A stretch of DNA of 64,000 nt, from NCBI GenBank assembly GCA_000165345.1, contig CM000432.1, positions 896,001-960,000 on the forward strand, given 5' to 3'. The first letter of the stretch is position 1, and each line of letters opens with the position of its first letter. The position numbers and the translations under genes were made by a program. This document shows positions 885 through 62,456 of this stretch, one piece after another. The notes beneath the pieces are model-generated. The model ran no database searches. It was not told where the DNA came from and worked only from the letters and a program-made list of their open reading frames with translations.

Positions 885-1322
885 ATATTGCATGTTGTTA
901 CCATAAATTAATAAAAGAATAATGATTATATTAAAGTATTGATCTTACAAAAATAAAATAAGAATTAAATAATAAAACAGAAATACTTTTTTCCCCAAAA
1001 GAGATTATTTATATAAAATAATTAATTGATTTTTTTTCATCCCACATTTAAATATCTACAAACATGCATGCATGAATGCATGCAGTATCTTTTGCAGTAA
1101 AGTCTAAGTATAGGCCTATTTTGATAAGATAACTCACTTTTTAGAACTCAAATTAGAGAGAAAAATTCATTAAATAAATTATATGATTAGATAAGAGCAA
1201 AAGATGATAACAAAACATGAAATTGTTAATATCTGTTCTAGTCTGAAAATTATTCTTCTAAATAATCATTAATATCTACTTTAACAAATATTGATAAATA
1301 AGATAATTCTGCTGATTCCATC

Positions 1323-2090
1323 ATGATTACTAATATTAAAGGTAACAATGCAGAACTCTGTGATTTCTATAATGATCCAAAAAGAAGAGAAAGGGAAAAC
1401 GATTACATTAATAAAGAAACATTTCCAACCCTTGATCTTTCTATAGAAGGTATCCAAGAAAGTATATCTAAAGTTTGGGATGAATGCCAACAGGGACAAG
1501 AATTATTAGAAGAAATTGATCGTATTCTTACCATTTTATACTCAAAAATTTCAGCATTTTCATCTTCAAATAATGCTTGCTTTTCATTACAATCAGTTTC
1601 TGAGTTAGATTCTCTCGTTAAAGAATATGAGATTAAAAGATCTCTTATTTATGAAACTTTGAGTGGAAAAATCAATCTAAAGAGTGAGCTGGAACTATTA
1701 TATCTTGATTTTATAAAAAAACAATTCCAAGAAACTCATATTCCATTGGAAGGTGTTCAAGAGACTACCAACATAAATCAATCTTTTTTCTCCAATAATA
1801 TAACTCAAATGTCTTCAAATTCCTGTTCTGATTGGAGTATGATCAATGAAATAGACCAAAATGCTTATTCCAGTGGTTTAGATAGCTTTGAAGATGATGA
1901 TGATCAAGATAATGAATCTATGATACTCGATATGAGCATTTCAGGTAGCCATTCAACAAATTTCGAGTATATTCATCAAACCCAGGAAGATAGGCTTGAA
2001 CAAAATGGGCAAGAGATTCTTAATGTCTTAGAGATTGAACAAGAACGTAGCGATGATGGTTTTATTCCTTCTTTTATCTTCCACTTTTAA
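1323..2090 (+). CDS. hypothetical acidic protein (255 aa), no recognisable domain
   Basis: Uninterrupted ORF from a true ATG at 1323. D/E/S-rich C-terminal half. Upstream region carries E2F-like and GCATGC motifs (877-884, 1062-1085). Confidence 0.45.
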   Translation: MITNIKGNNAELCDFYNDPKRRERENDYINKETFPTLDLSIEGIQESISKVWDECQQGQELLEEIDRILTILYSKISAFSSSNNACFSLQSVSELDSLVKEYEIKRSLIYETLSGKINLKSELELLYLDFIKKQFQETHIPLEGVQETTNINQSFFSNNITQMSSNSCSDWSMINEIDQNAYSSGLDSFEDDDDQDNESMILDMSISGSHSTNFEYIHQTQEDRLEQNGQEILNVLEIEQERSDDGFIPSFIFHF

Positions 2091-10664: not shown

Positions 10665-11804
10665 TTTCTTATTCTCTTTTTTTTCCCCCTATATTTTCAA
10701 GTAGAATAAAAAAAAAAAGCAAAAACCTAATTTAATTAAAGTTTTTATCAAATTTAAAAAGAACAAAAAAACCTTAATTTTTTTTTCTATAAAAGTAATT
10801 GACATTGCATTTATATTGCAGTTGTGCATAACAATAAGTTACCGGCATTTATAACTAAGTTTCGTGTTATTTTCTATTAATTCCTCTTGTGGGGGCAAAA
10901 AATAAGGAGACTCCTAAACTATTCTATTATTTAAATTAGTACTAAAATTAATAGTTTTACTATTTTTATTTATTAGAAGACGTGAAGTATTATTATTAAT
11001 AAAAAATAATTTATTTAAAATTGACACACATCAGGCGGGCTCTGCCCAACAAATTAATTTAAGAAAATGCAGCTTTAATGTTAGAGCATTTAAATACTTA
11101 TAATTATTTCATAAGAAGACGTCAATTTGAATTGTTGTTTAGCAATATTAATCCTTTATAATTCTCTCTTTATTTTTATTAACTCTGAAGACAACTATTA
11201 ATGGTTTTTTTGTTAAAACCAAATAATTATTATCCTAAATTATATTATCCTCGCATTTTGCTTTATATTACGTAATTACATGTAATAATTACAATTATTT
11301 GCATGCATATTTGTTTTCTGTTAGAGTTTTGTAATGTGGCAATGAAATTATTAAATTACATACCGGTGTTCAAGTTGGAAAATTATGTGTCACAATAACA
11401 TTTATTTACAAAAACTATTAATATTATTTTATTCTTAAATAAAAACATTATGAAATATTTATTTATTATTGATCATTATTTCTTTTCAATTTTTGAAAAA
11501 ACATTGTAATATCTTGATAAATTCTTTCTCTAAATAAATATAATTTGTGTAAAATTAGAAACAATAAAAATCAATAGGTAGAATAATAGCTGTAAGATAA
11601 TAGGAGAAATGAAATAAGGTAATTGTAAGGAAAAAAAAAGTTGAAAAGTTTATATTCTAGATTTATTAGAATAATAATATTAATAGTAGTTTGCGAAATA
11701 TAGGTGAATTCTATGTATTGACAAGAAGGAATTCGCGAAAAGAAAACTTGAAATTCAAGAAATTCCTCCATATAAAAACTCCCATCACTTTGGTGGAGAT
11801 AAAT

Positions 11805-12222
11805 TTAATGTTCTTCAGCTTTGTGGATAGGATTAATGAGTGGAAACATTTGAGAAAGGTAAACGCAAAACCACATAATCCATAGGCAGAAAGTCATCAT
11901 TACTACCACAACAAGTGAAATCCTGAGAAGGCAAAAAAGTTATTAGTAGGTAATTTGCAGTTCTAGCCATCGTTTCAATGCAAAATTGATCTGTTTTGTA
12001 TTACTTTTTGTAAACAAAATCAGCAAATGACCAGAAGAAAATGCATCCTTTGACTAACAAAAGATACATATCCAATAATTAAACTTACTTAGCAGTATCA
12101 GATCTGGAAAGATTCTTACTTCCCTTAATACCAAAATATACTGTTGAAGAAACCGCAGCAATGAAACCCAGTACTCCAAAAATTATTGAACCAAAAATCG
12201 CATTATCATAAGGAGGAGCCAT
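11805..12222 (-). CDS. VMA9: V-type ATPase V0 subunit e (ATP6V0E/Vma9 homolog), 83 aa, two exons: 12089..12222 and 11805..11922, intron 11923..12088
   Basis: Not in the ORF track. Exon 1 encodes MAPPYDNAIFGSIIFGVLGFIAAVSSTVYFGIKGSKNLSRSDTA. The donor GTAAGT overlaps an in-frame TAA. A polypyrimidine acceptor (cttttttgccttctcag) lies 166 nt downstream. Exon 2 continues in frame with KISLVVVVMMTFCLWIMWFCVYLSQMFPLINPIHKAEEH*. The two-helix product aligns with subunit e (human [31 protein letters not shown], yeast MMFLMWAITFLCQLHPLVAP). A G-box GGGCGGGAAAG (12360-12370) sits about 140 bp upstream. Confidence 0.7.
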
Positions 12223-12827
12223 AATTTCTCAAATACTTAATAGTAACTCCAGAATCTCTTATTCTTTATTTTATAAAGCTATTTTCAAGCCTTTAATTTT
12301 ATTTTTTATATTTATTATTTTTTTGTATCTTTATATTAATTTTTTAAATTATTGGCTTTGGGCGGGAAAGTATTTCCATTTAATTACTATGTGACAAATA
12401 ATTACCCATATTATTAAGAGGGAAAGAAGGTAAGCTAAATGTTAATAGAGAAATTGGGAAAATAAAATAAAGTAATATTGGTTAGTGTTAAAAAATAAAA
12501 ATAATATCTATGAAAAAACAAATGTAATGTATAAGAACTAACGTTGTATAGTGGAATTTGATAAAGTTTGATATTTTTCCATTATATGTTGAGTAATGTC
12601 TTGAATAGTATTTTAGATGTAGAAGATTCAATTTCTAAGAAGAAGAAAATAAACTTTTCAATTTATTGTATAGCTAATTATATATTAATCTATTAGTTTA
12701 CAATATATATTCACATTTAATATTAGAAAATTTATTTTGGGATATTATATAATATATAGCGAAATTCAAAATATTTTGATAATTTTTAAAAAAAGACTAT
12801 TTCGAGGTTTATTGGTGTGTGTAAGGT

Positions 12828-13955
12828 ATGGCAACTATTAATAATGCAGTATTTTTGTCAGATGATGAAGAAGATGAATCCTTTCATGGATCTGATGCCT
12901 CTTCTATAATAGAAGGTGAGAGGTAAGTCTTTAATAAATTAGATGGATTTTTTTTTTAAATATATTTAATTTCTACCACTTTAATATTTATGAACATAAA
13001 AGTTCTGAAGAAGAGGTTTCTAGTTCAACAAATAGAAAATCGAAAAAATCATCTTTAAAAGATGTAATTAATGATCGAAAAGTAGAAAAGATATACAAAG
13101 AGTTATTGGAAGAATCTAAAAAGGAATTTCAAGAAAGAGTATCTACTGTAAGTAAAGACCATTTTATGTTGGAATTTCAAAAGAAGTGTTTTGATCCATT
13201 AAGAAAGAAAAATTCGAATTTACATGAATTAAGACATTATGTAGATCTTGGTGTAAGTTTACAATTCCTCAAAACTAATGGAGAAATTGTTTGGAAAGAA
13301 TTATCAGAGAATTCTCAGCATAACAAAATTAATATAAGTTATGAAGCAAAGAGATTATCACAATTCTTACTTACTTAATCTCCATTTGATAATCGATTTT
13401 CTATTCACTAATTTCTTAATCACCTTTTCTTATAAATAGATTTCCAAAGTATTTGAGAATCCAATAAACTTTGATATTTCAAAATTCAAAATTTCGAGCC
13501 GAAATCTGAGCAAAGAATCAGAGAAAGAAACACGTAGGATGATTGAGGAAGCTCTAGGAAGTTTAGAGGAAAAAGGAGTGCGATATATTGATAAGAAAGT
13601 TAAATATGCAGGTGAAACGTACACTATTAAAGAAAAAGTCGACCCGGAGACATTTTCAAGGAAAAAAGCACGAACATCTTCCACAGGAATGCAAGCTCTT
13701 GATGAAATTGTTGCTAATCTTAATAAGGAAATTAACATTAACTCAATACAAAAATCACACTCTGATTGGACTGAATTTAGACAGATGGCGGGCCTCGAAT
13801 CTCAGCTTGAGCGCCAAAGAAAACATGGCTATATTTCAAAGACGGCATTTCTGCAAAAAGCAGATTGGAAATTACATGAAAAAGAACTTGAGATTAAGAG
13901 AAGAAGCGGTGGTAATAACAATATTAGCAGTAGTAGCAATGCAAGCGGTAACTAA
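12828..13955 (+). CDS. SWC5: BCNT-C domain protein (CFDP1/Swc5 homolog), about 287 aa, three exons: 12828..12922, 13003..13252, 13440..13955
   Basis: Acidic N-terminus (MATINNAVFLSDDEEDESFHGSDASS) typical of Swc5/CFDP1. C-terminal KSHSDWTEFRQMAGLESQLERQRKHGYISKTAFLQKADWKLHEKELEIKRR matches the BCNT-C domain. Two GTAAGT...AG introns (12923..13002 and 13253..13439) join three ORF pieces in frame. The ORF track shows them as separate 90-aa and 138-aa ORFs. The second intron is less certain than the first. Confidence 0.65.
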
Positions 13956-16168: not shown

Positions 16169-18109
16169 ATGAGATTGAGAAACTGGTGTATCCTTTCAAT
16201 CTTCATACTTCTGATTAAATCGTTAGATAATATATGTTTTGCTTCTAATGGAGAATTTAATTCGTTAACTATAGCTTCATATACGCAGCAAAATCAACAA
16301 AGAATAGCAACATTAGCAACTTATAAAAAGAAGATCAATGATTCCAATAAAAGGATATTTAAGCTAAAAAAAATCATTTGTAGAATATTACAAGTACAAC
16401 AGGAAAATAATCAAACGGGATTTAATTCAAACTCTAAAGCTACAAGAATTTCAGATAGACATCAAGATGCCATTGTTACTACTAGTGGAAGTAATAATAA
16501 AAGTAGTACTTCCGATAATGATGAACTTGAAAAGAAACTTTCTGAAGTTGTTGTATCTTTATTAGACGAACAGGCTAAATTCGCAAACTTGATATTGAAA
16601 AGAATAATAATATTTTGGAATCCAAGTTTAAACTTTGGAGTTGATATCTCATCTAAAGGAGCATTAGAACGAGGATTTCTTGATATGCTTGGTTTAGGAG
16701 ACAAGCAAATTTGGAGTGGATCTAATTATGGTGGTAAACTTATAAGAGCTACAGACTCTGAGAATAGAATACAAGAGTCTCTATCAAAATTGATTAGTCT
16801 TACTGAATTATATAGATATCTAATGGTACATAACTATCTTCATATTATTGGTTCCATTTATAGACATACAAAAAATTTTGAAAGAACTGTCAGATCAAGA
16901 CTTAGGTTATTTAAAAAAATGAGAGATAGGCTGGTAAGCACAAGAGATTCTTTAGCTTTGATATTAAATACAGATTTACCAGATGACGTTAATTTACCAC
17001 ACCCTATTTCTCCTCCTTGTTATCTTAATATGGGAGAGAATTGTAATGAAGAAATGTATAATCAAATCTTGAATGAAATAGCTTTTTTCAAAACAGTTCA
17101 AGATGAGAATAGAGAGCTTTCAACTAGAATTCGTGATGGATCATGTGGAAACCATGAAGTTACAGGATGTACATTCTGTGAAATCAAGAAAGCAAGGATA
17201 TCTTTGATTGAATGGGCATTTAATGATATTCAATCAGATTTAACTAGACTAGAAAGGGATTTGAAGCTTTGCCAGGAAACAATTAAACGGAATAATGGAA
17301 ATGATTTATCCATTTCCAAATTTAATAGAGGCGGAGGAGGTTTTGAACCAAACTTGGATTATAACATTTCTGATTCTTCAGAAACTATGCTCGGATATGG
17401 ATCTAGCGAGCTAAGCAATGATCAAAATGAAACCAATTCATATGGTAATTTTTCAAGTGAATTTGGAAATAATGCAAGGCCAACAGGAAACATGAATAGA
17501 AGATCACGAACTTGCTCAAGCACGGAGATTAAAAGATATAAAAGAAGATCCTTTCATCATAAAACGTCAAAAAAGACTTCGAAGCGTAGATATCTTAAAT
17601 CAAGGAGGACAAAGACAATTAGGAAATCTAAAGATTGCGATGCTGATCCTTTTTTAGCGGATAACAATAATGATGGTGTATCAAATGTAAGTAGTTCCCA
17701 CAAAAATCAAATTCATTCCACAGATTCTAAAAATAGTAGCTCACCTTCAGGTTTTAAGAGTGATTATAATAACAGAAGAAGATCTATATCAGGAGGAGGC
17801 AAACAAACAACCGAAAATAATGATCTGGGTATATCTTCCCCCTTTCTTAGTACCTCTGAAACTAGTAGTCATTCTTCAGATTGCGAATATGAGTCAGAAA
17901 CAGACGCATCCTCACCTTTTAATGGTGAAACAAATTCTATTACGAATACACCCGAGATTCATAGCTCTGTAAGTCCGAAAAGTACCGTATCACCGGAAAC
18001 CAAAAGGGGCTACTCTTCAGCTCCAAATGATTCCATCCAATCGCTTAAAACTGAAGTTCCACAATCTCTCTCCAACACACAAAACAATAAAAGAAAAAAT
18101 AGGAGGTAA
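16169..18109 (+). CDS. hypothetical secreted protein (646 aa) with signal peptide, coiled-coil middle and basic Ser/Arg/Lys-rich C-terminal tail
   Basis: N-terminus MRLRNWCILSIFILLIKSLDNICFASNG is a signal peptide. Tail has RRSRTCSS, KRYKRRSFHHKTSKKTSKRRYLKSRRTK. True ATG at 16169. Confidence 0.6.
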   Translation: MRLRNWCILSIFILLIKSLDNICFASNGEFNSLTIASYTQQNQQRIATLATYKKKINDSNKRIFKLKKIICRILQVQQENNQTGFNSNSKATRISDRHQDAIVTTSGSNNKSSTSDNDELEKKLSEVVVSLLDEQAKFANLILKRIIIFWNPSLNFGVDISSKGALERGFLDMLGLGDKQIWSGSNYGGKLIRATDSENRIQESLSKLISLTELYRYLMVHNYLHIIGSIYRHTKNFERTVRSRLRLFKKMRDRLVSTRDSLALILNTDLPDDVNLPHPISPPCYLNMGENCNEEMYNQILNEIAFFKTVQDENRELSTRIRDGSCGNHEVTGCTFCEIKKARISLIEWAFNDIQSDLTRLERDLKLCQETIKRNNGNDLSISKFNRGGGGFEPNLDYNISDSSETMLGYGSSELSNDQNETNSYGNFSSEFGNNARPTGNMNRRSRTCSSTEIKRYKRRSFHHKTSKKTSKRRYLKSRRTKTIRKSKDCDADPFLADNNNDGVSNVSSSHKNQIHSTDSKNSSSPSGFKSDYNNRRRSISGGGKQTTENNDLGISSPFLSTSETSSHSSDCEYESETDASSPFNGETNSITNTPEIHSSVSPKSTVSPETKRGYSSAPNDSIQSLKTEVPQSLSNTQNNKRKNRR

Positions 18110-18390: not shown

Positions 18391-18951
18391 TTTACTTCTC
18401 ACTAGAGGATGTTATTTTTTGGTAAATATTGCGAAATATTGAAGATATTAAGATAATGCATAAGAAGAGATAAGAGAGGGATGCATTTTCTTTTTATTTT
18501 CTAATTTGAGAGAAAAAGTTACTTAAATTTATTTTAGAGCTATAGTGTAAGATGTTTTGTAGTATATACTTATGGCATCTTCATTTTATGTTTATGGTTA
18601 CACATGCTGGTATTAGTGGCGGATTAATTTGAAGTTTTCTTAGATTTTTTTTTCTTCCGAATTCAAATAATCACGAGCTCTAATTCTTTTGCTAAATTCC
18701 AGCTAAGTTAGAAAGATGTTTCAGAGGCGTATATAGGGAGAAAAAAGTACTGAATGTGGGGAGTTCATACTGGGGGTAACAAAAAGTTTGGAATGTTTTA
18801 TAATATGGGTCTTTCCCGAATTATATATATTTAGTAATTCACTATCTTTTTACTTAAATCTACAAGGTGGGTTCAGGCTTTGAGGGAGGTATGAATTTGG
18901 ATACTGCATAGAAGAAGTAATATTTTTTGTTTTAATTTTCTTCCCGATCTT

Positions 18952-19378
18952 TCACTCTTGCTTATCAGCTTCACGCTTTTTCTTTTTTTCCTCTCTATTT
19001 TCAGAAGGGAGCCAGTTAACTTTGTTTCTGCAATACATTGGCCAGGAAGGAACACAAACCTGAAATTAAGAATTAAAAATGCAAAATTATTAATTCCCGC
19101 GACTTACTAGAAGAGTGATAGCCAGACCTAATAAAGTTGTCAGTACCGTATAATAGAACTTTTGGTGGTAAAATCCAATAATAAACGACATAATCCCTGT
19201 TAATATAACCAGTCGTTCTTGAATCTTATATGCTAGATCTTGTCCGGAAAAATCCTAATTTTTCAGTAAATGTAAGTGTTTTTAAGTTAAAGTGATCAAT
19301 AATTATTTCTTTTTCTTTTAAACTTACGTGAATATTTTCCTCTAAACAATTTTTGATGTGTAGTATTGTTCCTAACAT
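18952..19378 (-). CDS. SPCS1: signal peptidase complex subunit 1 (SPCS1/Spc12 homolog), 101 aa, three exons: 19328..19378, 19108..19254, 18952..19059
   Basis: Spliced product MLGTILHIKNCLEENIH|DFSGQDLAYKIQERLVILTGIMSFIIGFYHQKFYYTVLTTLLGLAITLL|VCVPSWPMYCRNKVNWLPSENREEKKKKREADKQE*. It aligns along its length with human SPCS1 ([28 protein letters not shown]...[22 protein letters not shown]). Both introns are GTAAGT...AG (19255..19327, 73 bp; 19060..19107, 48 bp) and phase-consistent. Only the last exon appears in the ORF track (18873..19055). Confidence 0.75.
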
Positions 19379-24423: not shown

Positions 24424-24934
24424 TTAGTATTTATTATTTATACATAAGGTAAAGAAATTGAAGTGGGAAAATATTAAGTCAAAGTAAAATTATTTTTAAT
24501 AATTCATCAACTCCAATCAACAAGTAATAAGATTTTTTTAAAAAAGAGACAATAATTTCAACATTTCCAATCAGGAAGTTTGTGAGTGTTAACGCGTATA
24601 ACTAGCCATTTATAGTCGTTATTAACTTTTAAAAAAGATATTAAGTAATAAAGCAAAAGTGAAAACTAGTTTGTTTAGAAAAGAAAGATAAACTTGCACT
24701 AATAAGCTAATGTGAGTGTGAGGGAGTAATTTAGCTTGCTTAGAATCGATTATAAACTCCAAAAATCTTATATTTGGATGAGTATTTAAAAAGCAGGAAA
24801 GTAAATAATAATAATTGAAAAAAAAAGTACATACGTGTAAAAGGATGTATGAACTTGCATGGGTATATAAAAGAACTAAAATAATAATTTAATTATTGGA
24901 ATACAGAAATTGAAATTAATCTAAAGTGGAAATA

Positions 24935-25936
24935 ATGCTTGATATTAACTATAAGAATGTATTAAGTATTGGAGATCAACTATTTCCTGAGTTAGAACTG
25001 AGACCATTTCTAATAAATTTGCCCTTAAACAAGAATGAGAATACTAGGGATGGTATAAAGAAGAAGATTTATAGAAGTTTTTCTTACAAAATTGAAGAAT
25101 ACAGAAAAGAGCTGAATATTTTTATGAATGAGGATAATGTCTTTAACTTAATATTTGATAATATTGAGAGTTTGGATGAAAATATTTTAAGAGGATTTTC
25201 TCAAATAATTGATTTAAATGACAAAGATAGCAATACAGTTGAAGATGTTATAGGACTTTTAAATGATCCAAATATTTGCGGGTTTATATTTATTATAGCA
25301 AAACCAATTCATATTGAGGAACCAGGAAAAACATTAAACTTTAAACCAATTCTGGGAGCAGTGATTGAACTTGTAGATGACAATGAAAGAGCAATCAGAA
25401 TGATGTTTTGTAAGAGAAGATTCCCTTACAGTATATCTGAAATGTTAATTCGGCTTTCAATTGGTAGAGTTTTTATACATGCACTTAAATGGAATTATGA
25501 TGATGGAAGTAAGAAAAGAAAGAGTAGCAATAAACTAGTTTCCATTTTGGACGAACATATTCAATTTTTTCCTATTCCAGCTTATAATATACTGATCAAA
25601 GAAATGAATATGTCACCTCATTGGGAATTATCTACAAAGAAAATTGCACATTCTGATAGCTTTAAAGCAAAATGTCCTTGCTACAAGTTCTCTAAATTGG
25701 AAGAATCCAGAAAATTCTGGGGAATTTCTGAATCACGTTACATATCTACTATTAAATCAAATCCTCAAATTTTCGGGTCTTTAATTAATTTGAGTGACTT
25801 TTCAAATTGTGACCTTTTTAAACATGTACAAAATAATTTAAAACATAACGAAATCATTTCCAATGAATCTTCTTCATCCATTTCAAATATTGATTCACCC
25901 TCCTCATCTATAAGTAAAAAAAGAAGAGTTACCTAG
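24935..25936 (+). CDS. hypothetical protein (about 333 aa)
   Basis: ORF-track start at 24926 is a GTG. First ATG is at 24935 (MLDINYKNVLSIGDQ...). No recognised domain. Confidence 0.5.
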   Translation: MLDINYKNVLSIGDQLFPELELRPFLINLPLNKNENTRDGIKKKIYRSFSYKIEEYRKELNIFMNEDNVFNLIFDNIESLDENILRGFSQIIDLNDKDSNTVEDVIGLLNDPNICGFIFIIAKPIHIEEPGKTLNFKPILGAVIELVDDNERAIRMMFCKRRFPYSISEMLIRLSIGRVFIHALKWNYDDGSKKRKSSNKLVSILDEHIQFFPIPAYNILIKEMNMSPHWELSTKKIAHSDSFKAKCPCYKFSKLEESRKFWGISESRYISTIKSNPQIFGSLINLSDFSNCDLFKHVQNNLKHNEIISNESSSSISNIDSPSSSISKKRRVT

Positions 25937-27517: not shown

Positions 27518-27911
27518 GGGGGTATCGAATGTTTAAGATCGCAAAAAAATTAACAAAGCAATTTTTTTTTAAATTGTTATTTTCAAAATAAAGGGGCAGA
27601 AAGAGGAAGGAGAAAGGCGAGGCCATAATACAGGTGAACATTTATAGGTATATCCACTCTACTGGTAGAAATTATTTTTGGTTAACTAATCATATAAATT
27701 ACATTTTTTATAATATATATTAAGGTATTAAATTTATTAGAAGAATAAGTAAAAGTTTAACTAACGACCCTTTTTTGTGAATTCTATTAATGTTGCAATA
27801 ATAATATTAATTGATTTTAACTTTATTGACTTACTTTATACTAATAGCTTCTTATAGCATACTATACATATAAATATATATAAATATATTAAAAGACACT
27901 TTTATTTGTAT

Positions 27912-29426
27912 ATGAATAAGCAAGACTCACATCCAAGCAGAAATAACTACGATACCCAAAAATTCCCCTATAACCCAGAAAATTTTAAAACTTTTGTGCA
28001 GATCCTTCTAAGACTATTTCATGATTCTCCAGCAATTATTGTTGGAGATTGTTTAATCAGAGAGCAAAAATCATTCACAGATAGAGATCTTGCTACTAAA
28101 TTAAACTTATCTGATAGGCAGGTTAGAGAGGCTTTAAGACAATTAGAAGAAGACTTGATTGTTGTTAAGGATCAGAAATCGAACGATGGATCTCAAAGCA
28201 ATAGCTCAAGCTCTGATCAGTTTTCAAATAAAAATAACGGTACTTTAAACTTCTCTACTGATCTTGAAAGTAAATATTCTTCAAACCAAGGAGGATCTGG
28301 ATCAAATTCCGCATATTTTATCAATAATAGTACCGGACTACCCTCTAATAGGATTGGCCCATCTTCTTTCAGGATCAATCCATATTTACCTGCTGTTGTT
28401 GAATGGCAATATAACACAATTATTCGTGAAATTGACCAAGAAATTAAAGATGCTGTGAACCTTGATGAATTAATGTGCAATAGATGCAATGCAAAGTATT
28501 CTTCACTTGAGGCTCTATCACTAGATTTAAATCCTGATGATGGGTTATTCTTATGTAGGTTTTGCAACGAAAAACTTAAATCTGTTGATTCTGCTTCTTT
28601 TAGAAATGCTGCTAAAGATAAAGCTGAAAGAGTCAGATCACAACTTCAAATTCTGTCAAACTCTTTAGAACTTGTAAAAAATATGCATATTCCTGTATTT
28701 CCTCCATATCAAAGCAAGAATGACATCAATTTTAATAAAACAAAACTCCCTAATAGTTTAGAGAATGATGGCAATATTGATAGCAAAATCTCAGATGATC
28801 AAATTACTAAAACCTCTTTATCTAATGAAACCTCAACTCCTATTTCAATAGATAATAATTCTTCCCCTATTAGTAACCAAAGTAATTTCAATATAAACAT
28901 TAATCACCCATCATCTGGTATAAGGAACTCAAACTCAACTTCATCAATTTCATCATCTTCTTCTCCCCAAGTACTTCCTCAAAATACAATTTCCAAAGTC
29001 AAGTTTGGAATAAAGCTTTCTGCCAAGTCAACAAGCTCTATTATCGGAACTTCTAATAGCCATTATTCCAAGCTTTCTGGTAATAATAATGCTATTAAAC
29101 AAGAGAATTCCAGTATTATTTCTTCTTCTAACCTTTCTAATAACTTTACAAATAGTAGTAATATTAAAATTACTAGTATTATTACTGATAATATTAAAAG
29201 TATTGACCAGGAATCTAATCGCCATACACCTACTACAGCTAGCTCCTCTTCAAAGTCTCCTGCTAAAATTGAAGAACCAACTTTTTCTGTCTCTGCTATT
29301 AAGGATAAAGTCTTTAAGATTACTGAAATTGATGATGATATTATTAATCAAATGACTGATACTGAATACTTAAAGTACGATGAACTACTTCAACAGTATC
29401 AAACTCTTGGATTGATTAATACATAA
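27912..29426 (+). CDS. TFA1: general transcription factor TFIIE alpha subunit (winged helix plus zinc ribbon) with long S/N-rich C-terminal tail
   Basis: FVQILLRLFHDSPAIIVGDCLIREQKSFTDRDLATKLNLSDRQVREALRQLEEDLIV is a TFIIE-alpha winged helix. Zinc ribbon CNRCNAKYSSLEALSLDLNPDDGLFLCRFCNEKL is C-x2-C...C-x2-C. ORF-track start 27906 is a TTG. First ATG is at 27912. Confidence 0.7.
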   Translation: MNKQDSHPSRNNYDTQKFPYNPENFKTFVQILLRLFHDSPAIIVGDCLIREQKSFTDRDLATKLNLSDRQVREALRQLEEDLIVVKDQKSNDGSQSNSSSSDQFSNKNNGTLNFSTDLESKYSSNQGGSGSNSAYFINNSTGLPSNRIGPSSFRINPYLPAVVEWQYNTIIREIDQEIKDAVNLDELMCNRCNAKYSSLEALSLDLNPDDGLFLCRFCNEKLKSVDSASFRNAAKDKAERVRSQLQILSNSLELVKNMHIPVFPPYQSKNDINFNKTKLPNSLENDGNIDSKISDDQITKTSLSNETSTPISIDNNSSPISNQSNFNININHPSSGIRNSNSTSSISSSSSPQVLPQNTISKVKFGIKLSAKSTSSIIGTSNSHYSKLSGNNNAIKQENSSIISSSNLSNNFTNSSNIKITSIITDNIKSIDQESNRHTPTTASSSSKSPAKIEEPTFSVSAIKDKVFKITEIDDDIINQMTDTEYLKYDELLQQYQTLGLINT

Positions 29427-60899: not shown

Positions 60900-62456
60900 T
60901 TAAATGTTAAAATAAGGATGAAATGAAGAAGGAAATTCATCCATATCCTCAAATCTACTGATTACTATATATCTCTTTAATAAATGAGAAGAAGAAAACT
61001 CTTGAAATTTTGAATTATTGAAAATATTATTTATCATACTACTTTTTTGTATTTCTTTCTCTATATTAATTTCATCTTGATCCTGATCTGCATCTTCATC
61101 TTTAAATCCATTATTACTTGTATTAAAATTTGTATTCAATTCTAAATTCTTATATTTTATATAAATTTTTTGTATTATATATTCCGATACCTTTAGATCA
61201 CGAGACATATTTAATAAGGTATCGATTTCATTAATATTCATTAAAATTTCTTTTGATCTGTTTCTAACAAATTCAAGAATATGAGTATTTAAATTAAATT
61301 TCTCAAATTTATAATCTTTGAAAATTATACATAATAAAGATAAAGCAATTTTATAAACTGTAATGTTAAAATTCTTGCTTGGATCATGAATTATTATATT
61401 ATCTAAAATTAGTATTGAATTTATTGCATATTCTGTATCAGCAATATCATAAGTAAATAATGTAAGAAACCATTGTATTGCAAAAAGTTCTGAAGTTATT
61501 TCTATTTCATTTTCTTTATTATTAAAAATATTATCATATATTTCTGGTAGATATTCTTTAATTAGTTCATTAAATACAAAACACATTTCTCTAAGTTTAA
61601 TTAAACCTTTATTATATATTTCTTGATATTCCCAATTTATTAATATTGACATTACTGATGAATAAACTTGTTCAACATTAAAATCTAAAGCATATAAAAA
61701 GATTCCAACCAAATAATTCATTCCTTGACAGTAACCAACATTAGGTAATGCATAAGAAATCTTGAAAAGTATTTCAATCATTTTATTTTGATTTTCATTT
61801 ATTTGAAATTCTTTTAATTTAGGAAAAGTTCTTGATATATCTCTTAATATTTCATCGTGATTATTTAACATTGTATCTAATTCACTTTCATATGATAATA
61901 CAAAATCATTTTTACTTTCTTTTTTTAATCTTATTTCTTCAATCTTCTTATTATCTTCAATACAAAGTTCATATTTATCTTCACCAATAAGTATACATTT
62001 CCATATCCATTTTCTTTGATTTTTATTGAATTTATTTAATTGTATTGGATATCTTTCTTGTAGAGTTTTAATAGAGTTAGCTTCAGCAAGCCATAATTTA
62101 CATACTAAAGAGGCTTCTTTTATATCATCTTCATCTAAGAATGTAAACAAACCAGAATTTAATACTGATCTACAATTTTTACTAAATATTTTATTAATTA
62201 TTTAAAATAAAATTATTATTATTATTTTTTTTCATTTTATTACTTACCTATTATTATGATTCACTAATAACTTTCTTATAAATCCATCTTTTAATTGATT
62301 GTTCATATTGTTATATCCATTATTTTTACCTTTTTCAATATTTACTAGATTAGTTTTTTCATTTGGTTCATTTTCTTTGATTTTCAATTCTAATTCTGCC
62401 AAACATAACTTGTCAACATTTTTAAAATTCTTGTCTTTTTTTCTTTTTCTAATCAT
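60900..62456 (-). CDS. F-box plus TBC-domain Rab GTPase-activating protein, two exons: 62248..62456 and 60900..62181, intron 62182..62247
   Basis: TBC signatures: arginine finger ILRDISRTFP and glutamine finger GYCQGMNYL. The ORF-track M at 62150 is a TTG. The frame stays open upstream to an AG acceptor (aaatatttag|t). A GTAAGT donor ends the upstream ORF 62244..62459 (MIRKRKKDKNFKNV...LLVNHNN) in compatible phase, and the junction codon is AGT. The joined sequence LFTFLDEDDIKEASLVCKLW fits the F-box consensus (L..IF.YLD..DL...VCK.W). Confidence 0.6.

What the first reader, a model, noticed from the sequence alone, without database searches (positions are those of the whole stretch)
18952..19378. 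Three-exon SPCS1 (signal peptidase 12-kDa subunit) gene largely invisible to ORF scanning
Exons of 51, 147 and 108 nt, separated by 73-bp and 48-bp GTAAGT...AG introns, give a 101-aa protein. It aligns along its full length with human SPCS1, including the diagnostic PxWPxY-R-x-x-x-x-WLP motif (VPSWPMYCRNKVNWLP). Only the last exon appears as a 60-aa ORF with a spurious start. A 48-bp intron is at the low end and worth confirming.
Basis: partly seen in the sequence, partly recalled or inferred. Interest (0 to 1): 0.65.

Follow-up and report, generated by a model that had tools for sequence, protein, structure and literature searches.

The report
Known spliced SPCS1 gene of Cryptosporidium

Summary
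On the minus strand, exons 19378..19328, 19254..19108 and 19059..18952 are separated by GTAAGT...AG introns of 73 and 48 nt. They encode a 101-aa protein that matches Pfam SPC12 (PF06645) at 88.9 bits against a cutoff of 23.6. It carries every invariant or near-invariant residue seen in 109 aligned homologues. Its predicted fold matches human SPCS1 (7P2P chain D).

The window is C. parvum chromosome 4, with 0 mismatches over 6.4 kb to CP029783.1. The exact 101-aa protein is already deposited for C. parvum and C. hominis (cgd4_3760 / CHUDEA4_3760 / CUV05819.1).

Both introns sit at the same position and phase in orthologous loci from seven further sources. Exon 1 and 2 lengths are fixed, intron lengths vary, and substitutions concentrate at third codon positions. 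Of 220 possible GT...AG models, the 48-nt junction scores far best against a profile built without Cryptosporidium sequences.

One side claim is wrong. The 60-aa ORF is not exon 3 with a spurious start. It is a different reading frame, the same one used by the faulty old Iowa II model XP_001388079.1. No transcript reads could be examined here.

The parts
19328..19378 (-). CDS exon 1 (51 nt, residues 1-17, MLGTILHIKNCLEENIH). The start ATG is at 19378..19376.
   Evidence: This is the first in-frame ATG after an upstream stop. A 51-nt exon encoding M....(I/V/L)K(N/K)CLE(E/D)N(I/V)H, followed by GTAAGT, is found in all 9 orthologous loci. It lies outside the Pfam domain, so its support comes from comparison and from the need for a start codon: exon 2 is preceded by an in-frame TAG.
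19255..19327 (-). Intron 1 (73 nt, phase 0, GTAAGT...TTAG, 19% GC)
   Evidence: It has the same position and phase in all loci, with lengths 73/74/68/72/73/59/175/124 nt, always GTAAGT...AG. The read-through reading frame ends at a stop codon. An internal AACTTAAAA element is conserved.
19108..19254 (-). CDS exon 2 (147 nt, residues 18-66): the DFSGQ motif, TM helix 1 and most of TM helix 2
   Evidence: On its own it matches Pfam SPC12 profile positions 2-50 (45.4 bits). It is 147 nt in every species. It carries D18, G21, Q22 and G44, which are invariant or at least 96% conserved across 109 homologues.
19060..19107 (-). Intron 2 (48 nt, phase 0, GTAAGT...TCAG, 27% GC). It interrupts TM helix 2.
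   Evidence: Read-through gives ...LLVSRGN**. Lengths are 48/48/48/48/49/89/416 nt across species, always GTAAGT...CAG. It is the best of 220 GT..AG models: 120.7 bits against 78.1 for the next best and 58.7 unspliced.
18952..19059 (-). CDS exon 3 (108 nt, residues 67-101 plus the TGA at 18954..18952): the end of TM2, the P-x-W-P...W-L-P motif and a lysine/glutamate-rich tail
   Evidence: On its own it matches Pfam SPC12 profile positions 51-70 (28.5 bits), exactly continuing exon 2. It carries P70, W72, P73 and W82.
19165..19212 (-). Predicted transmembrane helix 1 (about residues 32-47)
   Evidence: Hydropathy maximum. AlphaFold2 helix 19-47, with pLDDT 97-98 across the TM region. It aligns to TM1 of human SPCS1.
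19051..19155 (-). Predicted transmembrane helix 2 (about residues 51-69), split by intron 2
   Evidence: Hydropathy maximum. AlphaFold2 helix 50-68.
19006..19050 (-). Family signature PSWPMYCRNKVNWLP (residues 70-84)
   Evidence: Conservation among 109 homologues: P70 105/109, W72 109/109, P73 100/109, W82 103/109. Y75, R77, L83 and P84 are only majority residues.

Best explanation
[quoted passage not shown] It is a 427-nt, three-exon nuclear gene on the minus strand of chromosome 4. Two short U2-type GT-AG introns of 73 and 48 nt are removed to give a 306-nt CDS and a 101-aa protein. Shown here: the exon/intron anatomy, family membership, purifying selection in the proposed frames, and a confident predicted two-helix membrane hairpin that superposes on human SPCS1. 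Inferred from the human and yeast complexes: the hairpin sits in the ER membrane with both termini in the cytosol. It packs against the TM helix of SPCS3 (SPC22/23) and contacts SPCS2 (SPC25) on the cytosolic face. In this way it helps frame the lipid-filled 'TM window' through which signal peptides reach the Sec11 active site. It has no catalytic role. By analogy with yeast Spc1, it most likely sharpens substrate selection by shielding signal-anchor and TM segments from cleavage.
For: Anatomy and translation. Pfam PF06645 scores 88.9 bits against a cutoff of 23.6, covering profile positions 2-70 of 71. Exon 2 alone covers positions 2-50 and exon 3 alone covers 51-70, so the join is seamless. 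Human SPCS1 7p2p_D gives E = 9.4e-13. The exact 101-aa sequence is already deposited (CUV05819.1, PPS96374.1, KAL3128526.1, KAL5369059.1, CPHLJ_4g3760), with 99% identity in C. tyzzeri, a 101-aa orthologue in C. meleagridis and an 82%-identical orthologue in C. canis. Public gene calls give the same 427-nt span next to eIF3c. The window is identical to CP029783.1 over 6.4 kb. All 9 orthologous loci have three exons, with exon 1 = 51 nt, exon 2 = 147 nt, variable intron lengths, and always GTAAGT...AG. Differences by codon position 1/2/3 against parvum are 0/0/7 (hominis), 13/4/56 (canis) and 20/8/53 (xiaoi). Introns fall to 49% identity in canis and are unalignable in xiaoi. The published dN = 0 and dS = 0.096 for CHUDEA4_3760/cgd4_3760 agree (PMC4637869). 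All invariant and near-invariant family residues are present. The AF2 model has pLDDT 94.1 with helices 19-47 and 50-68. The top Foldseek hits are human and chicken SPCS1, TM-score 0.53-0.61. The mechanistic background comes from the human SPC structure paper (bioRxiv 10.1101/2020.11.11.378711) and the yeast Spc1 study (PMC8277137).
Against: No transcript or peptide evidence for this particular gene could be examined here. A scan for the spliced junction in metagenome contigs found nothing, which is uninformative. The locus tag appears in no searchable main text. Support for the N-terminal 16 residues comes only from within the genus. The function within a Cryptosporidium signal peptidase complex is entirely by analogy, and no partner subunit was examined. 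SPCS1 is dispensable for catalysis in yeast and human, so its importance in the parasite is unknown.
Confidence: 0.96

Rival explanations
1. The old C. parvum Iowa II model (XP_001388079.1 / EAZ51267.1, 111 aa, 'partial') is the true gene. In that model there is no exon 1, exon 2 is joined to an exon starting at 19061, and the reading frame runs on to 18873, the frame of the 60-aa ORF.
For: It is a deposited RefSeq model. Its exon-3 frame is the only ORF of at least 60 aa on this strand.
Against: Reproducing it requires a 46-nt 'intron' GTAAGT...AATTTC with a non-AG acceptor. It has no start codon. It replaces the family-invariant P-x-W-P...W segment with RFVFLPGQCIAE..., so only about 60 bits of the profile remain against 120.7. 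Later annotations of C. parvum, C. hominis, C. tyzzeri, C. meleagridis and C. canis all use the 101/99-aa model.
Confidence: 0.01
2. The introns, or at least the 48-nt intron 2, are mostly retained. The main product would then be a truncated protein ending ...ITLLVSRGN* that lacks the P-x-W-P motif.
For: Intron 2 is short and a multiple of three. Prokaryote-style gene calls on related contigs produce just such read-through proteins (P0004, P0005).
Against: Exon 3 is under clear purifying selection in the spliced frame in every species where it could be checked (L009 ends before it). Read-through hits stops in most species. Donor GTAAGT and acceptor CAG are invariant. The read-through 'proteins' are artefacts of ORF callers, and one is an annotation error in C. 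xiaoi.
Confidence: 0.02
3. It is a decaying pseudogene or a chance similarity, not an expressed gene.
Against: E-values run from 1e-25 to 1e-37. dN/dS = 0 between parvum and hominis. The CDS is intact, with conserved synteny next to eIF3c, in at least 7 species.
Confidence: 0.01

Closest known systems
C. parvum cgd4_3760 / C. hominis CHUDEA4_3760 (CUV05819.1, 'Microsomal signal peptidase subunit (SPC12)'; also PPS96374.1, KAL3128526.1, KAL5369059.1, CPHLJ_4g3760)
   Same: It has the identical 101-aa sequence, the same 427-nt gene span and the same neighbours. This is the same gene.
   Different: Nothing.
Human SPCS1 (SPC12; PDB 7P2P chain D) and yeast Spc1
   Same: It belongs to Pfam PF06645. 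It shares the D-(F/Y)-x-G-Q motif, two TM helices joined by a loop of 2-3 residues, P-x-W-P-x-(Y/F)...W after TM2, a small size and a charged C-terminal tail. Identity is 32% over residues 17-94, and the predicted fold superposes.
   Different: The N-terminal 16 residues are genus-specific and predicted helical. Several majority residues differ: C76 where the family has N/R, K79 where it has P, and H17 where it has M/I. The long human isoform has an N-terminal extension of about 65 residues that is absent here.
C. parvum Iowa II XP_001388079.1 (2004-2007 annotation)
   Same: It is at the same locus and has the same exon 2.
   Different: It lacks exon 1 and uses an acceptor shifted by 2 nt (non-AG), so exon 3 is read in the wrong frame. 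It is an annotation error that later models supersede.

Membership tests
SPCS1 / SPC12 / Spc1 (Pfam PF06645) | Profile match above the curated gathering score over essentially the whole domain | tested here: met
   88.9 bits against 23.6, profile positions 2-70 of 71, residues 18-86. 120.7 bits against a profile built from 107 non-Cryptosporidium homologues.
SPCS1 / SPC12 / Spc1 (Pfam PF06645) | Family-invariant residues: D-(F/Y)-x-G-Q before TM1, G in TM1, P-x-W-P after TM2, and a distal W | tested here: met
   D18, G21, Q22, G44, P70, W72, P73 and W82 are all present. Each is conserved in 100-109 of 109 aligned homologues.
SPCS1 / SPC12 / Spc1 (Pfam PF06645) | Small protein forming a two-TM helical hairpin with a very short connecting loop | tested here: met
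   101 aa. Hydropathy peaks at residues 32-46 and 54-69. AF2 helices 19-47 and 50-68, pLDDT 94. The best PDB fold matches are 7p2p_D and 6wve, both SPCS1. This is a prediction, not an experiment.
SPCS1 / SPC12 / Spc1 (Pfam PF06645) | ER membrane localisation with both termini cytosolic | not testable with these tools
   Inferred from the human structure. The charged KKKKRE tail after TM2 is consistent with a cytosolic C-terminus.
SPCS1 / SPC12 / Spc1 (Pfam PF06645) | Stoichiometric subunit of the Sec11-SPCS2-SPCS3 complex | not testable with these tools
   No interaction data exist. The Cryptosporidium partner subunits were not examined. The structure paper states that the accessory subunits occur in essentially all eukaryotes.
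U2-type spliceosomal GT-AG introns | GT donor and AG acceptor with a consensus-like donor | tested here: met
   Both introns are GTAAGT...AG in the window, and so are all 17 orthologous introns examined.
U2-type spliceosomal GT-AG introns | Position and phase conserved among orthologues, while length and sequence drift freely | tested here: met
   Intron 1 is 59-175 nt and intron 2 is 48-416 nt, with length differences that are not multiples of 3. Exons stay at 51 and 147 nt.
U2-type spliceosomal GT-AG introns | Length within the range the organism's spliceosome handles | tested here: met
   C. parvum IOWA-ATCC has 1,364 CDS introns, mean 87 bp, shortest 31 bp and longest 2,223 bp (PMC13125899 Table S1). 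48 and 73 bp lie inside this range.
U2-type spliceosomal GT-AG introns | Junction-spanning transcript reads | not testable with these tools
   No RNA-seq was available. Baptista et al. state that introns in the IOWA-ATCC annotation are 100% RNA-seq supported, but this gene is not named there. The junction scan of metagenome contigs was empty.

The most novel reading that the evidence does not exclude
The most novel reading that the evidence does not exclude concerns the genus-specific, strongly conserved exon-1 peptide (M....IKNCLEENIH, predicted helical with high confidence). It might give Cryptosporidium SPC12 a lineage-specific cytosolic interaction. Alternatively, intron 2, which is 48-49 nt in five intestinal species, might be used for regulated retention. 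Either would make this more than a plain housekeeping orthologue.
Probability: 0.04. Interest if true: 0.3.

Novelty: already known. Interest (0 to 1): 0.08.

Why it matters
It matters little for biology, because the gene and this exact model are already public. Its value is methodological. It shows that the first-stage reader can reconstruct a tiny multi-exon gene from raw sequence, one that no ORF scan at 60 aa or more shows in the right frame. It also shows that the only visible ORF there is a decoy frame, which misled the original Iowa II annotation. Two practical by-products follow. RefSeq XP_001388079.1 (C. parvum Iowa II) and C. xiaoi RS030_192905 are mis-modelled at this locus and could be corrected. 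SPCS1 is a host factor for flaviviruses and a modulator of substrate selection by signal peptidase. In a parasite that depends on secreted effectors, its role is untested.

Tried and rejected
(1) A literature search for the locus tag cgd4_3760 in main texts gave 0 papers. The tag is found only in a supplementary dN/dS table. (2) Literature searches for the signal peptidase complex in Cryptosporidium found nothing relevant. (3) A scan of metagenome contigs for the spliced exon 2/exon 3 junction, as a proxy for cDNA, gave 0 matches, which is uninformative. The junction sequence is also absent from the window, as expected. (4) tRNA and Rfam scans of the whole window found nothing, so no RNA gene competes for this locus. 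(5) Plus-strand ORFs over the locus are at most 50 aa and were not pursued further. (6) I considered the 60-aa ORF frame as an alternative exon 3 and rejected it, because it needs a non-AG acceptor and loses the family motif. (7) I considered a start at M39 without exon 1 and rejected it, because it would delete the conserved D-F-x-G-Q motif and half of TM1, and because exon 1 is conserved in all nine loci.

Full report
OBSERVATION. The gene lies on the minus strand.
- Exon 1: 19378..19328 (51 nt).
- Intron 1: 19327..19255 (73 nt, GTAAGT...TTAG).
- Exon 2: 19254..19108 (147 nt).
- Intron 2: 19107..19060 (48 nt, GTAAGT...TCAG).
- Exon 3: 19059..18952 (108 nt including the TGA).

The CDS is 306 nt. 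The product is MLGTILHIKNCLEENIHDFSGQDLAYKIQERLVILTGIMSFIIGFYHQKFYYTVLTTLLGLAITLLVCVPSWPMYCRNKVNWLPSENREEKKKKREADKQE, 101 aa. The ATG at 19378 is the first in-frame ATG after a stop six codons upstream. Exon 2 cannot be extended upstream, because the acceptor TAG is an in-frame stop. The window is 28.8% G+C.

The 60-aa ORF 18873..19055 reads MFLPGQCIAETKL..., a different frame from exon 3. The true exon-3 frame shows only as a 28-aa ORF (18952..19038). Exon 1 opens a 50-aa ORF that runs on into intron 1. Part of exon 2 shows as a 33-aa ORF. At a 60-aa threshold the real gene is therefore entirely invisible, and the one visible ORF is a decoy.

FAMILY. The spliced product matches Pfam SPC12 (PF06645) at 88.9 bits against a gathering score of 23.6, E = 2.3e-25, covering profile positions 2-70 of 71. 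Exon 2 alone covers profile positions 2-50 and exon 3 alone covers 51-70. The exon 2/exon 3 join is therefore seamless in profile coordinates.

Against the PDB, the best hits are human SPCS1 (7p2p_D, E = 9.4e-13), chicken SPCS1 and a second human entry. Identity to human is 25/78 = 32% over residues 17-94. The first 16 residues do not align, so 'full length' is a slight overstatement.

An exhaustive HMMER search found 535 cluster representatives at E <= 0.001. In an alignment of 109 of them, the window protein carries every invariant or near-invariant residue:
- D18: 105/108
- G21: 105/109
- Q22: 109/109
- G44: 106/109
- P70: 105/109
- W72: 109/109
- P73: 100/109
- W82: 103/109

Y75, R77, L83 and P84 are majority residues only.

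Hydropathy shows two hydrophobic segments, residues 32-46 and 54-69. An AlphaFold2 model built from the family alignment is confident (pLDDT 94.1) and has helices at 2-14, 19-47, 50-68 and 88-100. Its only meaningful Foldseek hits in the PDB are human and chicken SPCS1, with probability 1.00 and TM-score 0.53-0.61.

IDENTITY OF THE LOCUS. The protein search shows the window is Cryptosporidium. The exact 101-aa sequence is already in NCBI and UniRef: CUV05819.1 'Microsomal signal peptidase subunit (SPC12)' [C. hominis], PPS96374.1, KAL3128526.1, KAL5369059.1 and 'CPHLJ_4g3760 [C. parvum]'. C. tyzzeri TRY52017.1 differs by one residue. C. meleagridis has a 101-aa orthologue and C. canis a 99-aa one.

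On public chromosome-4 records the gene call spans 427 nt in C. parvum and 428 nt in C. hominis. It lies between eIF3c (1040 aa) and a 646-aa protein, exactly as in the window. The 6.4 kb centred on the gene is identical to CP029783.1 (0 mismatches), differs at 5 positions from CM109964.1, and is about 96% identical to C. hominis. The window is therefore C. parvum chromosome 4 and the gene is cgd4_3760.

SPLICE JUNCTIONS, COMPARATIVE TEST. I fetched orthologous loci from C. hominis, C. tyzzeri, C. meleagridis, C. canis, C. xiaoi, an unnamed Cryptosporidium in a Logan assembly (SRR31860986) and an ENA contig. All three exons are found in each by tblastn, except in the ENA contig, which ends before exon 3.
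- Exon 1 is always 51 nt and exon 2 always 147 nt.
- Intron 1 is 73, 74, 68, 72, 73, 59, 175 and 124 nt.
- Intron 2 is 48, 48, 48, 48, 49, 89 and 416 nt.
- Every donor is GTAAGT and every acceptor is AG.

Differences from C. parvum fall overwhelmingly on third codon positions. By position 1/2/3 they are 0/0/7 for C. hominis, 1/0/5 for C. tyzzeri, 8/2/16 for C. meleagridis, 13/4/56 for C. canis and 20/8/53 for C. xiaoi. Meanwhile the introns fall to 49% identity in C. canis and cannot be aligned in C. xiaoi. The seven synonymous and zero non-synonymous differences from C. hominis match the published values for CHUDEA4_3760 | cgd4_3760: identity 1, dS 0.0959, dN 0 (supplement of PMC4637869).

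Exon 1 lies outside the Pfam domain, so it rests on this comparison. Its peptide is conserved as M....(I/V/L)K(N/K)CLE(E/D)N(I/V)H in all nine loci.

SPLICE JUNCTIONS, EXHAUSTIVE TEST. I built a profile from the 107 non-Cryptosporidium rows of the family alignment. I then scored all 220 models that join any GT in the donor region to any AG downstream, with introns of 20-300 nt. The next best scores 78.1 bits, and the unspliced reading scores 58.7 bits.

IS 48 BP TOO SHORT? No. The C. parvum IOWA-ATCC annotation has 1,364 CDS introns with mean 87 bp, shortest 31 bp and longest 2,223 bp. C. hominis UdeA01 has 682, with mean 99 bp and shortest 36 bp (Table S1 of PMC13125899). Isaza et al. report 688 introns of mean 99 bp and 22% G+C after an RNA-seq/cDNA-guided re-annotation that raised intron-bearing genes from 4.3% to 10.8%. 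Intron G+C here is 19% and 27%. Baptista et al. state that introns in their C. parvum/hominis/tyzzeri annotation are 100% supported by RNA-seq. That is general support, since this gene is not named there.

THE OLD MODEL. RefSeq XP_001388079.1 / EAZ51267.1 (C. parvum Iowa II, 111 aa, 'partial') starts at exon 2 and continues ...ITLLRFVFLPGQCIAETKL.... It is reproduced exactly if exon 3 starts at 19061. That implies a 46-nt GTAAGT...AATTTC 'intron' with no AG, and a reading frame that ends at 18873, the frame of the 60-aa decoy ORF. It lacks the family's P-x-W-P...W segment and is an annotation error.

MECHANISM. This part is inferred, not tested here. In the human complex, SPC12 contributes two TM helices. 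Together with the TM helix of SPC22/23 they form one of two three-helix bundles that frame a lipid-filled TM window. With SPC25, SPC12 forms a cytosolic clamp. [quoted passage not shown] In yeast, loss of Spc1 increases cleavage of signal-anchor and TM segments, and overexpression decreases it. This suggests the subunit shields TM segments and sharpens substrate selection. The Cryptosporidium protein has all the structural elements needed for the same role. Its localisation, partners and phenotype are untested.

WHAT WAS NOT POSSIBLE. No RNA-seq reads could be consulted. A scan of metagenome contigs for the spliced junction sequence found nothing, which is uninformative. The locus tag occurs in no searchable main text.

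VERDICT. The feature is a real, conserved, purifying-selected three-exon SPCS1 gene, and it is already annotated with exactly this model. Interest is low.

Noticed in passing
window 18873..19061 (-): The RefSeq model XP_001388079.1 (C. parvum Iowa II) for this gene is wrong. It lacks exon 1 and uses a non-AG acceptor 2 nt upstream, so exon 3 is read in the frame of the 60-aa decoy ORF.
   Followed up: yes
L007 1281..2160 (C. xiaoi JAWDEY010000010.1): The C. xiaoi annotation RS030_192905 (95 aa) is mis-modelled. It starts at an ATG in the tail of intron 1 and reads through the 416-nt intron 2. A three-exon model (exons at 1281..1331, 1507..1653 and from 2070) gives a 97-aa protein with the full SPC12 motif.
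   Followed up: yes
window 19255..19327 (-), intron 1: An AACTTAAAA element about 25-35 nt upstream of the acceptor is conserved in six sources, including C. canis and the SRR31860986 species, although the rest of the intron has diverged. It might be the branch-point region.
   Followed up: partly
window 13106..13955 (+): A 138-aa ORF (13539..13955) carries a BCNT domain (PF07572, 70.5 bits). A 90-aa ORF just upstream (13106..13378) has no Pfam hit and may be an upstream exon of the same gene.
   Followed up: partly
window 10700..13100: About 2.4 kb has no ORF longer than 66 aa, no tRNA and no Rfam match. That is unusually long for a genome that is about 75% coding. It could hide an intron-rich gene or a long non-coding RNA.
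   Followed up: no
window 24926..25936 (+), 27906..29426 (+), 60900..62150 (-): Three long ORFs have mechanical GTG/TTG starts. One is a RabGAP-TBC protein, one matches TFIIE-alpha weakly and below the cutoff, and one has no Pfam hit. Their true starts may be internal ATGs or upstream exons.
   Followed up: no
window 16169..18109 (+): The neighbouring 646-aa protein has a hydrophobic N-terminus, serine/asparagine-rich low-complexity stretches and no Pfam hit. It is conserved in position in all intestinal species examined.
   Followed up: no
L008 (Logan SRR31860986) and L009 (ENA ERZ11448883): Two contigs from unnamed Cryptosporidium-like organisms carry the same three-exon gene with different intron lengths (59/89 nt, and 124 nt for intron 1). 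Prokaryote-style gene calls on them produced intron read-through 'proteins'.
   Followed up: partly
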